Sequence record: OZ365185.1
Strand: one strand, 5' to 3'
Origin: a phage
Length of the DNA: 47,066 nucleotides
Shown here in pieces: positions 36,001-39,000 of the stretch (positions are counted from its first letter, which is position 1; every line of letters begins with the position of its first letter). The position numbers were made by a program.

Positions 36001-39000
36001 GGGCTTCAATGAATTTCTGAACGTCATTCAAAAGACCCATGCTCACCCCCTGAATCCTGCCGGGATCTGGCTGTAGTCCACGTTGTCGTAACTGGCTTTG
36101 AAGTACGGGTCCTCGCGTCTGGCTGCAGATACCGCAGGAACTTCCCAGGATTCTTCGAAATGACGATCCGGGCCAAAGAACGTGACAGCCTGTTTCACAA
36201 ATTGTGTGCCGCTGTTACCCATCGCAGATACCCAGCCCGCGTAGCGTTTCACACCTGCCAGCATGGTTTCGGGTTTTACCCCCTCATTCAAACGGGCTTT
36301 CCAGGCTTTGAAGGCTGCAGATTTTGAATTGCCACCAGCACGTTTGGGGTATGCCAGCCATGCCTGCTCAAACTCCGGAGAGTATTCCGATCGGTTTGAA
36401 CGAACTCGCACAGACTCATCAGCAGATGCACCAACAGCTATTGGTTCATTGACTGGTTCTTTGACTGGTTCAAAAGAGTGACTGGTTCTGGGTGAATCTC
36501 CTGCACTACCCCCTGGTGCAACTCCTGCACTACCTGGTGAATTTGCTGCACCAGATAGTGAATTATTTGCACTACCCCCTAGTGAATCTCCTGCACCATC
36601 AAGATGAAGGAGATAGATATTACTTGAGTTACCTTTTTCACCTTTCCGGGTGACTTTTTTTACCAGCCCGGACTCACAAAGGGCCGCAATATGATTCATC
36701 ACAGAACGTTTGCTAATCTCGCACTGGTCAGCAATATGCTGGTAGCTGGGCCAGCACTCACCCTGATCGCTGGCATTATCAGCCAGCTTGATCAGAACCA
36801 GTTTTCGCAATGGATTACCCACTCGAATTTTCATCGCTTTAACCATCAGCTCCATACTCATGCTGCACCTCCGAGATGCTTCATGTTTTTTCCGGAGCGA
36901 AAGGCTATAAGCGGCATACTGACGCGGTAATTACGGCCCAGCGGTTCACAAATCACCTTCTGACATTCACGGTCAACCAGGCTAACACGTAGAACATGCC
37001 CTGCAGGCGTGGTGTACCACTGACCCGGACGAGGACAACGGAAAGTCTGATTGGTAAAACGTTTGAAAATATTCCGGATCATTTGCGCCCCCTTGCCTCT
37101 GAAGGGTTCAGCGACAAATTTATGAGGCAGGCCAGCGCCGAAGCATCATTAATATAGTCATATAAGCTAACAGCCAGCGGAGATTCGGCTTTTGCCAACA
37201 TAGGATAAAGCTGCTGCAGCCAGACCTGATGAATTGATGAAATGTAGGAACAGAGAACGCTGGCGTTATGTGCAACGTCGCTCGGTACAGCGGGCTTTGA
37301 AAGCTGTTTCTCCATCTGGTTAAAGGCATTGATGTATGCCTCTTTGAACTGGGCAGCACGTTTACCAGTGAAGCCCATGGCAAGAAACGCAAAACCGTCG
37401 CGGGTGATTTGATAGCAAGGAAGTTTGCGAGTACCGCCGTTGGGCTGGCGTACCAAAATTGATGTCTCCGCAAAATTGCGGGCACAAAACTCTGGAGAAC
37501 AATCCAAAATGCGGATCTTTTTCAGAACATCGTCATGACGTTTAGAGAAGAAGTCAGCAACAGCCAAAGAAGATGTAACAGCCTGACCATCAACGATGGC
37601 AATTTCAGGTTGAGAGAGGGTTGGGAGAGTAGTCATAGTGACAGCCCCGGTAGTCAGTTTTTTAGAAAACTCACCACATGGGACGCCAATCACAGAGGTG
37701 GTGAGACGTACAGGGTTGGCGTTACCGGAGACTACCGAACCCGGCCCGACCGAAGTCGGCCCTGTACGCCCCACCATAATTTGGGCGTAGCAATGCTCAT
37801 GACACGAAAAAACCGCATGAGCGCGGTTATGCTCAGTAATCAATTTCAGGACGCCAATCCCGGCACCCGCTTTATAAGGTGCCGGTACAGTGTAACGTCC
37901 CGGAATTGCAGAATCAATATGCTGCTGGTCCTTCACACTCAACAAAATCACGCCTGAATTTCCACAAAGGACTAAAGCACTCATGCGGGTAGTCTTTGCG
38001 AAGATAGATAACGCGCTGTGTTTCTGGCTCCCAACGAATAACATGAACATAAAGTCCTCTTCCGTCACGAAACCAGCGGTTAAGTTCCTGCACAACTCGC
38101 CCCCCACAGTCAGGTAAAGTTCTCTGTGGTTACTTACAGCCAGGTGATTTGGTAATCTGCATTCATGCCGTAACAACAGGTGTGCAGCGACACTGACCAC
38201 CAGCTGTTGCGACAAACGGTTATTTGCCGTTAAACTGTTCATGCGTTAGTTTCTCCACAGACACAAAACGCCACGACGCCCGGAGCTGCACACTCGCGGG
38301 CGTCACTCTTTTCTGGAGCGCAGAAAATTTTGTAGACCAGTGCCGCATGCTCCTGGAGCTTCGAAATTGACAGATACAACTCATCATTCATTGCTGTCTG
38401 CTCGTGTGGCTCCACTACCCCATCTTCGATTGCCGAACGAATCTGCTTTGAGTAACTCCCGATCTGTTCGATGACTTCCAGCAGGCGCTGGTTTATATCG
38501 GCGTTCTCTACTTCCTCAATGTCAGGAAGCGATACAAACACCCCACCAGCAGACTGTGCGACAGCATCCGCAATGTAGTGAGTGCCAGCCGCGCGCTGTA
38601 AAATCATTGCCCATCCCAGCGGGAAAATCTGATCGCCATCGGCACGAAGGCGATTGAATAAAGCGTTCTCTGTTACATCCAGCCACTCAGCTGCTTCAGC
38701 GTAACCACCCGGCAACGCCGCGATAGTTTTTCTGACCGCTTTCACGTACCACTCAGGCTGTTTTTCCACTTTCCAGTGATGCTTACCCACGGCTTACCTC
38801 CTTTTCCTGTGGTTTTAACTCATTCCGGTTTTGACTAGATTGAAAGCGAGCAGGATAGAGAATCTGCATTTCGCTGATTTCTCCCTTAAAAAAATTGGCC
38901 AGACGCTCTGCCAGATCGATAGATGGAATTTGTTCCAGTCTCTCAATACGACTCAGCGTCGCTGGATTAACCTGAACACCCGCAGCAACATGCTGCAAAG

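What the first reader, a model, noticed from the sequence alone, without database searches (positions are those of the whole stretch)
37079..38242. Rha regulator in frame with about 200 upstream codons of unknown nature
The ORF track gives a single 387-aa frame, but only the C-terminal 185 aa (from the Met at 37636) look like a Rha-family regulator. The upstream 200 codons are open in the same frame, have unusual composition (Cys/His-rich) and match nothing I recognise. Either this is a genuine two-domain fusion, a second gene whose stop was lost, or non-coding DNA that happens to be open. It is the only unassigned block of about 600 bp in the early-right operon, where a cII-like or antirepressor function might be expected.
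Basis: seen in the sequence. Interest (0 to 1): 0.4.

Follow-up and report, generated by a model that had tools for sequence, protein, structure and literature searches.

The report
P4-type RNA immunity module before Rha
The 200 "mystery codons" in front of the Rha regulator are not a protein domain: they hold a small overlapping gene and two known regulatory RNAs (IsrK/seqA-like and C4/CI-like) that control the Rha gene, the same design as the immunity region of satellite phage P4, so this is an ordinary member of a known system that annotation pipelines misread.

Summary
37079..38242 (-) is one 387-codon open frame, only the last 185 codons are Rha-like, and the first 200 are Cys/His-rich.

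The upstream 600 bp contains:
- a DUF4222 gene in another frame (37914..38093);
- an IsrK/seqA-type sRNA with its own terminator (37806..37882);
- a C4/CI-type antisense RNA (37694..37781), whose loop and single-stranded segment pair with sites in IsrK and with the Shine-Dalgarno region of the Rha AUG at 37636.

Across 97 related modules these pairings covary, with 35 loop types and 17 b' types.

The "N-terminal domain" shows no amino-acid-level selection (dN/dS 0.63-0.92, against 0.15-0.36 for Rha). Yet the frame is kept open: 76 of 117 distinct modules, against 0-1 in the other frames. Its ATG also overlaps the stop of the upstream cII-like gene.

This is the phage P4 eta/kil arrangement, in which a long read-through ORF encloses seqA-CI-seqC and a nested start gives the shorter product. 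P4 eta gives the same Rfam and Pfam "Ash" hits.

Verdict: a new member of a known kind, of low to moderate interest. Its practical value is that it explains the "Ash domain" annotated on Stx-phage Rha proteins.

The parts
38239..38790 (-). cII-like regulator gene (YmfL / Phage_CP76). Its TGA stop overlaps the ATG of the long ORF (ATGA).
   Evidence: Pfam PF06892 E 2.6e-14; PHROG 101 'CII-like transcriptional activator'; coordinates.
37079..38242 (-). Long eta-like read-through ORF (387 codons). It runs through the DUF4222 region, the IsrK-like RNA and the C4-like RNA, and continues in frame into Rha.
   Evidence: The frame is kept open in relatives. There is no amino-acid-level constraint in codons 50-201. 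P4 eta has the same layout.
37914..38093 (-). DUF4222 small protein gene (59 aa, GTG start), in a different frame inside the long ORF.
   Evidence: Pfam PF13973 E 9.4e-14; PHROG 1343 E 2.6e-36. Annotated separately in GenBank and by PGAP. Against ST64B, 15 of 21 substitutions fall on long-frame position 2, which is DUF4222 position 3, and the DUF4222 protein is almost unchanged.
37889..37917 (-). Inferred promoter of the IsrK-like RNA: TTGATT (37917..37912), 17-nt spacer, TACACT (37894..37889). The -35 hexamer overlaps the DUF4222 stop codon.
   Evidence: Aligns with Gifsy-1 PisrK (TTGACA-17-TATATT) and with the corresponding P4 stretch (TTGCCT...TATAGT) upstream of the isrK/seqA-like match, where a promoter internal to eta is reported. 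It matches only 8 of 12 consensus positions, so the scan did not report it. Coordinates. Not shown experimentally.
37806..37882 (-). IsrK / P4 seqA-type sRNA. It carries target copies b1 (UUGGCGU, 37857..37851) and a1 (GAUUACUGAGC, 37841..37831) and an intrinsic terminator (37828..37811 followed by a U run).
   Evidence: Rfam RF01394, 59.3 bits against a gathering score of 50; terminator scan; sub-threshold c4-a1b1 RF03163 match at 37843..37895; a1-a' and b1-b' covariation.
37694..37781 (-). C4 (P1) / CI (P4)-type antisense RNA, with hairpin loop a' (UUCGGUAGUC, 37739..37730) and single-stranded b' (ACGCCAA, 37722..37716). The conserved AUG at 37777, equivalent to the Gifsy-1 orf45 start, lies at its 5' end and is in frame with Rha here.
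   Evidence: Rfam RF01695, 82.3 bits against a gathering score of 45; fold -47.7 kcal/mol, z -6.0; stems 94-99% paired with compensatory changes; AUG frame.
37634..37693 (-). Leader carrying target sites b2 (UUGGCGU, 37689..37683) and a2 (GACUACCGGG, 37655..37646). The a2 site overlaps the Shine-Dalgarno-like GGGG (37648..37645) of the nested start AUG (37636..37634). This corresponds to P4 seqC and P1 a2/b2.
   Evidence: Complementarity and coordinates. In the a'-a2 helix 9 of 10 pairs change on both sides; in b'-b2, 5 of 5. The SD and AUG columns are at least 90% conserved in 97 modules.
37079..37636 (-). Nested gene: Rha-family regulator (185 aa), the controlled cargo, under purifying selection. 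Its stop overlaps the start of the next gene (36858..37082).
   Evidence: Pfam PF09669 E 2.2e-27; TIGR02681; PHROG 821, 995, 518 and anti-repressor families; dN/dS 0.15-0.36. The start MTTLPTLSQPE is positionally homologous to P4 Kil MATTLTPSHPE.

Best explanation
The stretch is a P4/P1-type RNA immunity module placed in front of a Rha-family regulator gene and embedded in an eta-like read-through ORF.

Shown by sequence and comparison:
- An IsrK/seqA-like sRNA with its own terminator is followed by a C4/CI-like antisense RNA.
- The C4 loop (a') and single strand (b') are complementary to one pair of sites inside IsrK (a1, b1) and to a second pair (b2, a2) just upstream of the Rha AUG at 37636. 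The a2 site overlaps the ribosome-binding site.
- These three-way pairings covary across dozens of specificity types.
- The 200 upstream codons are not constrained as protein, but the frame is kept open and starts with an ATGA overlap on the cII-like gene.
- A separate DUF4222 gene is read in another frame.

Inferred by analogy with P4 eta/kil, P1 c4-icd-ant and Gifsy-1 isrK-orf45-anrP:
- In the lysogen a promoter at about 37889..37917 makes short IsrK and read-through transcripts, and these are processed to stable C4 RNA.
- C4 pairs with b2/a2, blocking translation of Rha and probably favouring termination, so the regulator stays off.
- After induction, transcripts from the early-right promoter carry ribosomes from cro and the cII-like gene straight into the long ORF. 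Translation through IsrK, C4 and the target sites melts these structures and shields the RNA.
- Those transcripts therefore escape the RNA immunity, yield Rha as the C-terminal part of the long product and/or from the nested start, and reach the replication genes downstream.
- IsrK, which carries a1/b1, can act as decoy or activator by pairing with the C4 sequence.
For: RNA identity:
- Rfam C4 scores 82.3 bits and isrK 59.3 bits, both above their gathering scores.
- An intrinsic terminator lies at 37828..37811.
- C4 folds with z -6.0.

Pairing:
- In the window, a'-a2 is 10 bp, a'-a1 is 11 bp, and b'-b1 and b'-b2 are 7 bp each.
- In 95 parsed modules there are 35 a' types and 17 b' types. The median own a'-a2 run is 11 against 7 for non-own pairs.
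- Covariation score is 0.345 and 0.468 against at most 0.10 for slid controls, and 0 of 500 shuffles reach it.

Not a protein domain:
- dN/dS is 0.63-0.92, substitutions are even over codon positions, and amino-acid identity is below nucleotide identity in codons 111-201. Rha gives 0.15-0.36.
- Substitutions in the DUF4222 overlap follow the DUF4222 frame.

Frame kept open:
- 76 of 117 modules are open at least 300 nt downstream in this frame, against 0 and 1 of 117 in the others.
- Length differences are multiples of three. The distance from the C4 AUG to the nested AUG is a multiple of 3 in 48 of 59 class A modules.
- ATGA-type overlap with an upstream ORF occurs in 34 of 69 modules.

P4 equivalence:
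- P4 eta (8168..8767) overlaps the ORF88 stop by ATGA, contains the isrK and C4 hits, and hits Pfam Phage_ASH at E 3.8e-23.
- PMC10111431 summarises the eta/kil mechanism.
- For Gifsy-1, PMC4825925 shows experimentally that translation starting at the conserved AUG is needed for antirepressor expression, and that the nucleotide sequence is conserved while the peptide is not.

Operon layout: overlaps of 4-8 nt link cro, the cII-like gene, the long ORF, orf74, the O-like gene and the next gene.
Against: - No expression data exist for this phage. The promoter is a weak consensus match (8 of 12) that the scan did not report.
- Codon usage of the upstream part is poor: 0.054 per codon against a training mean of 0.326. 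Rha itself is only 0.168.
- In the first 110 codons the evidence for a selected open frame rests mainly on one divergent relative, ST64B.
- A third of the modules (Gifsy-1 type) work with stops in this frame, so translation through the RNAs is not obligatory for the RNA system.
- In 11 of 59 class A modules the nested AUG is not in the long frame.
- Rha is not homologous to the proven antirepressor AnrP, so its antirepressor role is assumed from family annotation only.
Confidence: 0.75

Rival explanations
1. The stretch is non-coding for protein apart from DUF4222. The only real Rha start is the AUG at 37636, the long frame is never translated, and its openness is a by-product of conserved, GC-rich RNA sequence.
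For: Two Rfam RNAs fill the stretch. There is no amino-acid-level constraint. Codon usage is poor. The SD and AUG at 37636 are conserved. Annotators disagree on the start: TTG at 37942, an internal Met, or ATG at 38242. Gifsy-1-type modules have stops in this frame.
Against: The openness is frame-specific, 76 of 117 against 0-1 of 117. It survives 14-32% nucleotide divergence, with indels in multiples of three. It extends beyond the RNAs, both upstream through the DUF4222 region and downstream. The ATG overlaps the upstream stop, as in P4 eta, where translation is documented according to PMC10111431. Column shuffling of the class A sequences gives about one stop per sequence, but that test is partly circular because the class was defined by having no stops.
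Confidence: 0.15
2. It is a genuine two-domain protein, with a folded N-terminal 'Ash' domain fused to Rha. The RNA family hits would then be incidental or secondary.
For: Pfam Phage_ASH hit at aa 117-212, E 1.4e-10. PHROG 821 and 995 cover both parts. The same N-terminal part is found in front of different C-terminal parts, which looks like domain shuffling. The literature treats Ash as a domain of unknown function.
Against: dN/dS is 0.63-0.92 and amino-acid identity (47-74%) is below nucleotide identity (68-86%) in exactly the Ash-matching part. The Ash hit (about 37607..37894) coincides with IsrK + C4 + leader. Variation is explained by RNA-RNA covariation. Codons 50-110 are overprinted on DUF4222, which is the frame under selection. 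There is no solved-structure relative.
Confidence: 0.05
3. It is a recent fusion. The ancestor had a Gifsy-1-type short upstream ORF (orf45-like) ending at the AUGA of the regulator gene, and this lineage lost the stop or shifted the frame.
For: The conserved AUG at 37777 is the orf45 start of Gifsy-1. Gifsy-1-type modules differ from the window by small indels.
Against: The in-frame arrangement is the majority state (62 of 97 in A1; 76 of 117) and is shared with P4 and with many unrelated cargo genes. The frame is also open upstream of that AUG back to the cII-like stop.
Confidence: 0.05

Closest known systems
Satellite phage P4 immunity region (PLE - seqA - CI RNA - seqC inside the nested genes eta/kil; Forti et al. 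1999, as summarised in PMC10111431)
   Same: Same order of parts. The long ORF has an ATG overlapping the stop of the upstream regulator gene (ATGA). An IsrK/seqA-like element and a C4/CI-like RNA lie inside the ORF. Two target pairs flank the RNA. A nested in-frame start with a similar N-terminus follows (MATTLTPSHPE in P4, MTTLPTLSQPE here). Rfam and Pfam give the same hits on both.
   Different: The host element is a lambdoid Stx2 phage, and the module sits in the early-right operon between the cII-like and replication genes. The cargo is a 185-aa Rha regulator instead of the 65-aa Kil. A DUF4222 gene is overprinted on the 5' part of the long ORF. P4 has an extra ~80-nt insert between seqA and CI. 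Termination control (timm, Rho) was not examined here.
Gifsy-1 isrK - orf45 - anrP locus (Hershko-Shalev et al. 2016, PMC4825925)
   Same: An IsrK sRNA with its own terminator, then a C4-like sequence (STnc1160) carrying the conserved AUG, then a regulator gene whose expression depends on this leader.
   Different: In Gifsy-1 the frame has a stop just before the AUG, and orf45 (45 codons) ends at an AUGA overlap with anrP. Here the same AUG is in frame with the cargo and the frame is open far upstream. The cargo AnrP has an ORF6N domain and is unrelated to Rha. The Gifsy-1 module lies downstream of the Q-like gene antQ, not next to cII.
Phage P1/P7 immI region (c4 antisense RNA - icd - ant)
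   Same: A C4-type RNA made from the same transcript as its target. Its a' and b' segments pair with a2/b2 at the ribosome-binding site of the downstream gene and with a1/b1 upstream. The system controls an antirepressor-type gene. This rests on established knowledge of P1 and on Rfam families RF01695 and RF03163.
   Different: P1 uses a separate small ORF (icd) translationally coupled to ant. There the c4 region is not part of a long ORF, as far as I know from memory. P1 was not examined here.
Pfam PF10554 'Phage_ASH' / NCBI 'ash family protein'
   Same: The long frame matches it at aa 117-212, 42 bits against a cut-off of 26.
   Different: The family behaves as a translation of the seqA-CI-seqC RNA region. 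It matches P4 eta / old 'cI' ORF, not P4 epsilon, which matches PF25738. The matching part here shows no purifying selection on amino acids.

Membership tests
Rfam RF01695 C4 antisense RNA (P1 c4 / P4 CI) | Covariance-model score at or above the gathering score | tested here: met
   82.3 bits against 45, full-length match 37694..37781 (-)
Rfam RF01695 C4 antisense RNA (P1 c4 / P4 CI) | Long closing stem enclosing two hairpins, supported by compensatory changes | tested here: met
   MFE fold equals the Rfam structure, -47.7 kcal/mol, z -6.0. Stems are 94-99% paired in 97 modules, and 13 of 27 stem pairs change on both sides.
Rfam RF01695 C4 antisense RNA (P1 c4 / P4 CI) | Loop a' and single strand b' complementary to target pairs upstream (a1, b1) and downstream (a2, b2) on the same transcript, with a2 at the ribosome-binding site | tested here: met
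   Runs of 10, 11, 7 and 7 bp in the window. Changes on both sides in 9/10, 8/10, 5/5 and 6/7 pairs.
Rfam RF01695 C4 antisense RNA (P1 c4 / P4 CI) | Processed to a stable small RNA (RNase P-dependent) that represses the target in vivo | not testable with these tools
   Needs Northern blots, RNA-seq and genetics
Rfam RF01394 isrK (P4 seqA-type) sRNA | Covariance-model score at or above the gathering score, with a 3' intrinsic terminator | tested here: met
   59.3 bits against 50; terminator stem 37828..37811 plus a U run
Rfam RF01394 isrK (P4 seqA-type) sRNA | Own promoter immediately upstream | tested here: inconclusive
   TTGATT-17-TACACT aligns with Gifsy-1 PisrK and with the corresponding P4 stretch upstream of the isrK-like match, but matches only 8 of 12 positions and was not reported by the scan
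P4 eta/kil nested-gene immunity design | Long ORF that encloses seqA, the CI RNA and seqC | tested here: met
   P4 was checked with the same tools.
P4 eta/kil nested-gene immunity design | Start of the long ORF translationally coupled to the upstream regulator gene | tested here: met
   ATGA overlap with the cII-like gene at 38239..38242. The same overlap is seen in P4 and in 34 of 69 class A modules. Coupling itself is inferred.
P4 eta/kil nested-gene immunity design | Nested in-frame start downstream of the RNA that gives a shorter product | tested here: met
   SD and AUG at 37636 are at least 90% conserved and align with the P4 kil start
P4 eta/kil nested-gene immunity design | Translation of the long ORF makes transcripts from the upstream promoter insensitive to the RNA-dependent termination (timm, Rho) | not testable with these tools
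   Indirect support only: the frame is kept open without amino-acid constraint
Gifsy-1 isrK-orf45-anrP type | Short upstream ORF from the conserved AUG that stops at the cargo start (AUGA) | tested here: not met
   The AUG at 37777 is in frame with Rha (141 nt) with no stop between. The window belongs to the in-frame class.
Gifsy-1 isrK-orf45-anrP type | Cargo homologous to AnrP | tested here: not met
   BLASTP E 0.81. AnrP has an ORF6N domain and the window cargo has Phage_pRha.
Pfam PF10554 Phage_ASH as a protein domain | HMM score above the curated cut-off | tested here: met
   42 bits against 26 at aa 117-212
Pfam PF10554 Phage_ASH as a protein domain | Amino-acid sequence under purifying selection, as expected of a folded domain | tested here: not met
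   dN/dS 0.63-0.92, substitutions even over codon positions, amino-acid identity below nucleotide identity
Rha family regulator (PF09669 / TIGR02681) | HMM score above the cut-off and coding-type evolution | tested here: met
   95.9 bits against 29.9; 92.8 against 45.95; dN/dS 0.15-0.36
Rha family regulator (PF09669 / TIGR02681) | Antirepressor or regulatory activity | not testable with these tools
   Only family annotations: PHROG 'transcriptional regulator' and 'anti-repressor'

The most novel reading that the evidence does not exclude
The long frame may be an ORF selected only for the act of being translated, a 'ribosome bridge'. It would keep an unbroken chain of translationally coupled genes from cro to the replication genes. 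In that way early-right transcripts of a lambdoid Stx phage would override a P4-type RNA immunity checkpoint, which in the lysogen silences both the Rha regulator and read-through into replication. On this reading the Pfam 'Ash domain' is a by-product of RNA conservation. The combinatorial a/b loop types (35 x 17 seen here, sometimes in tandem arrays) would define a large, unexplored set of RNA-based immunity specificities in enterobacterial prophages.
Probability: 0.4. Interest if true: 0.45.

Novelty: new member of a known kind. Interest (0 to 1): 0.3.

Why it matters
For annotation: GenBank and PGAP annotate this stretch in at least four different ways. Work on Stx phages treats 'Rha/Ash' as a two-domain protein whose Ash part has no known function. 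Recognising the Ash part as the translated image of an IsrK/C4 RNA module resolves that. It also flags PF10554 as an unreliable protein marker: one survey of P4-like satellites used it as the epsilon marker, but it matches eta, not epsilon.

For biology: this Stx2 phage would have a second, RNA-based layer of control over a Rha regulator, and possibly over entry into the replication genes. That bears on induction and therefore on toxin production. The kind of system is already known from P4, P1 and Gifsy-1.

Tried and rejected
The upstream part scores low (0.054 per codon), but so does Rha (0.168), and the other frames score badly mainly because of stops.
- The promoter consensus scan found nothing on the minus strand. 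The promoter call therefore rests on alignment to Gifsy-1 and P4.
- BLASTP of the long product against P4 Eta was not significant (E 0.42), although the nucleotide, Rfam and Pfam equivalence is clear. This itself shows the lack of protein conservation.
- Rha against Gifsy-1 AnrP showed no similarity.
- The PDB sequence search found nothing, and NCBIfam has no model for the upstream part.
- The original P4 papers (PMC94026, PMC176756) are not held, so the P4 mechanism is cited through PMC10111431 and from memory.
- The column-shuffle test for selection against stops is partly circular, because the class was defined by having no stops. I give it little weight and rely on the between-frame contrast.
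- I did not run structure prediction or the large protein searches. The substitution analysis already answers whether the N-terminal part is a protein domain, and single-sequence models are uninformative.
- I first took the long frame for a purely spurious extension. I dropped this when every relative kept it open and P4 eta turned out to have the same layout.
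Full report
**1. The observation**

The window is Escherichia phage 1720a-02 (KF030445.1, 100% identity), a lambdoid Stx2 phage. On the minus strand, 37079..38242 is a single 387-codon ORF.
- Pfam places the Rha domain at aa 223-312. The 185-aa product from the Met at 37636 keeps the full hit.
- The first 201 codons are open only in this frame.
- They are about three-fold enriched in Cys and His compared with 24 long ORFs of the window.

**2. What lies in the 600 bp**

Rfam finds two families above their gathering scores inside the 'unknown codons':
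- a C4 antisense RNA at 37694..37781 (82.3 bits against 45);
- an isrK RNA at 37806..37882 (59.3 bits against 50).

Another frame holds a 59-aa DUF4222 gene at 37914..38093, which GenBank and PGAP annotate separately in some records.

In the long frame, Pfam 'Phage_ASH' matches aa 117-212. That is window ~37607..37894, exactly IsrK + C4 + leader.

The gene upstream (38239..38790) is the cII-like regulator (Phage_CP76/YmfL).

Annotators disagree on the start. The GenBank record begins the 'antirepressor' at a TTG at 37942. PGAP gives the full 1164 nt, or 894 nt plus DUF4222. Where the downstream gene is different, PGAP calls it an 'ash family protein'.

**3. RNA anatomy**

The IsrK-like RNA ends in an intrinsic terminator (37828..37811 plus U run). 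C4 folds into the Rfam structure (-47.7 kcal/mol, z -6.0).

The C4 hairpin loop a' (UUCGGUAGUC, 37739..37730) is complementary to two sites:
- a2 (GACUACCGGG, 37655..37646), which overlaps the GGGG Shine-Dalgarno-like run 9 nt before the AUG at 37636;
- a1 inside IsrK (37841..37831).

The single-stranded b' (ACGCCAA, 37722..37716) is complementary to identical UUGGCGU sites in IsrK (37857..37851) and in the leader (37689..37683).

**4. Comparative test of the pairings**

A pattern scan of viral contigs for the conserved 5' end of C4 gave 120 stretches. Together with annotated relatives, P4 and Gifsy-1, I aligned 97 distinct modules.
- They carry 35 different a' loops and 17 different b' segments, each matched by its own a1/a2 and b1/b2.
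- The median own a'-a2 run is 11 bp against 7 bp for non-own pairs.
- Pair counts: a'-a2 has 9 of 10 pairs with changes on both sides; b'-b2 has 5 of 5; a1-a' has 8 of 10; b1-b' has 6 of 7.
- The C4 stems are 94-99% paired.
- Covariation scores are 0.345 and 0.468, against at most 0.10 for slid controls. No shuffle out of 500 reaches them.

The RNA-RNA interactions are therefore well supported by comparison, and a and b types recombine freely.

**5. Is the upstream part a protein?**

I compared the window with seven relatives.
- The Rha part evolves like a coding sequence: dN/dS 0.15-0.36, with a third-position excess.
- Codons 111-201 do not: dN/dS 0.63-0.92, substitutions even over the three positions, amino-acid identity 53-74% against nucleotide identity 68-86%.
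- A more distant module is 75% identical in DNA but 47% in 'protein'.
- In the DUF4222 overlap, 15 of 21 substitutions against ST64B fall on long-frame position 2, which is DUF4222 position 3. The DUF4222 protein is almost unchanged while the long-frame peptide changes.

So the 200 codons are not a conserved protein domain.

**6. But the frame is kept open**

- All close relatives keep the frame from the ATG that overlaps the cII-like stop through to the downstream gene. This holds even where that gene is not Rha (L004, L005) or where the upstream context differs (L010).
- Length differences in the module are multiples of three.
- In 117 distinct modules, the frame of the conserved AUG at the 5' end of C4 is open for at least 300 nt downstream in 76. 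The other two frames give 0 and 1.
- The modules fall into two classes. In the in-frame class, which includes the window, the frame runs through IsrK and C4 into what follows. In the Gifsy-1 class, a stop precedes the AUG and a short ORF of 27-45 codons follows.
- In 48 of 59 alignable in-frame modules the conserved nested AUG is in the same frame. In the rest, the long frame runs on over a small out-of-frame gene.
- In 34 of 69 in-frame modules the first ATG overlaps the stop of an upstream ORF, mostly as ATGA.

**7. The known system this matches**

PMC10111431 summarises the P4 immunity region as follows.
- The CI RNA and its target seqA lie inside the gene eta.
- A constitutive promoter inside eta gives transcripts that terminate early and are processed to CI.
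- Kil is a nested, truncated form of Eta.
- Full-length Eta is translated only from an upstream promoter, coupled to the preceding alpA-like gene, and its translation prevents termination.
- That paper also notes that the Rfam C4 and isrK models detect CI and seqA relatives.

I checked P4 with the same tools.
- The 199-codon eta ORF (8168..8767) overlaps the ORF88 stop by ATGA.
- It contains the isrK hit (8615..8692) and the C4 hit (8420..8507).
- It matches Pfam Phage_ASH at E 3.8e-23.
- Its nested Kil start (MATTLTPSHPE) aligns with the window's MTTLPTLSQPE.

The Gifsy-1 locus isrK-orf45-anrP is the experimentally studied relative (PMC4825925). Those authors showed three things:
- translation from the conserved AUG is needed for antirepressor expression;
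- IsrK acts in trans on the long transcript;
- the orf45 nucleotide sequence is conserved while its peptide is not.

The last point is the pattern I measured here. The cargo differs: AnrP has an ORF6N domain and is unrelated to Rha.

**8. Most likely mechanism**

Shown here: the parts, their pairing potential and covariation, the lack of protein constraint, the maintained open frame, and the ATGA overlap.

Inferred by analogy with P4, P1 and Gifsy-1:
- In the lysogen, the internal promoter (TTGATT-17-TACACT at 37917..37889, a weak match identified by alignment only) makes IsrK and read-through RNA, which is processed to C4.
- C4 pairs with b2/a2 and blocks the Rha ribosome-binding site, and perhaps promotes termination.
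- After induction, ribosomes coming from cro and the cII-like gene enter the long ORF and translate through IsrK, C4 and the targets. Early-right transcripts thereby escape the RNA control, make Rha, and reach the replication genes.
- Overlaps of 4-8 nt link cro, the cII-like gene, the long ORF, orf74, the O-like gene and the next gene. Without the long ORF there would be a largely untranslated 600-nt gap containing a terminator.

**9. Rivals**

- 'Never translated, open by accident' is weakened by the frame-specific openness, the three-multiple indels and the ATGA overlap. It cannot be excluded without expression data (0.15).
- 'True Ash domain + Rha' is contradicted by the substitution pattern and by the overprinted DUF4222 (0.05).
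- 'Recent loss of an orf45 stop' is unlikely, because the in-frame state is the majority and is shared with P4 (0.05).

**10. Novelty and score**

The kind of system is known from P4, P1 and Gifsy-1. SfV relatives even carry the label 'immunity region'. This copy, in a Stx2 phage and controlling a Rha regulator between cII and the replication genes, is a new member of a known kind.

Its practical value is to explain the 'Ash domain' of Stx-phage Rha proteins, which a recent survey lists as having no known function.

Interest 0.3.

Noticed in passing
L011 (phage P4) 7888..8767; Pfam PF10554: Pfam 'Phage_ASH' (PF10554) matches the P4 eta / old 'cI' ORF, which encloses seqA and the CI RNA. It does not match P4 epsilon, which a paper on P4-like satellites calls Ash; epsilon matches PF25738 instead. 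That survey used PF10554 as its epsilon marker, so the family name looks like a misnomer and the family is largely a translation of conserved RNA.
   Followed up: partly
L043:9289-11266 (also L028, L029, L081, L096, L102): Two or three IsrK-C4 modules stand in tandem at ~656-nt spacing. In L043, where the ORFs were read, each module has a different a'/b' specificity but is followed by a nearly identical short Rha-like gene, so one regulator is duplicated under three RNA specificities.
   Followed up: partly
window 37620..37900 compared with its flanks: In relatives such as Stx2a_WGPS2 and mEp460, the RNA module is only ~78% identical to the window, while the whole 1.3-kb stretch is 90-91% identical. 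The module is a local hot spot of divergence or exchange, as expected of a specificity determinant.
   Followed up: partly
L049, L050, L030 (~100 codons past the module) and L020 (1248 nt): In some modules the conserved nested AUG is out of frame with the long ORF. The long frame nevertheless stays open across the small downstream gene and, in L020, into an integrase-like gene. Openness therefore does not depend on sharing the cargo's frame.
   Followed up: partly
window 28425..28637 (-): Strong match to the sRNA family STnc100 (142.7 bits).
   Followed up: no
window 30052..30303 (-): Cluster of three tRNA genes (Arg-tct, Arg-tcg, Met-cat).
   Followed up: no
window 34899..39043 (-): Overlaps of 4-8 nt link cro-like, cII-like, the long ORF, a 74-aa gene (PHROG 1153), an O-like replication gene and the following genes. 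This suggests continuous translational coupling along the early-right operon.
   Followed up: no
window 37669..37676 and 37697..37705: The leader contains GUGGUGAG, complementary to the 3' strand (CUCACCAC) of the long C4 stem. This could form an alternative helix like the A/B conformers described for Gifsy-1. It was not analysed further.
   Followed up: no
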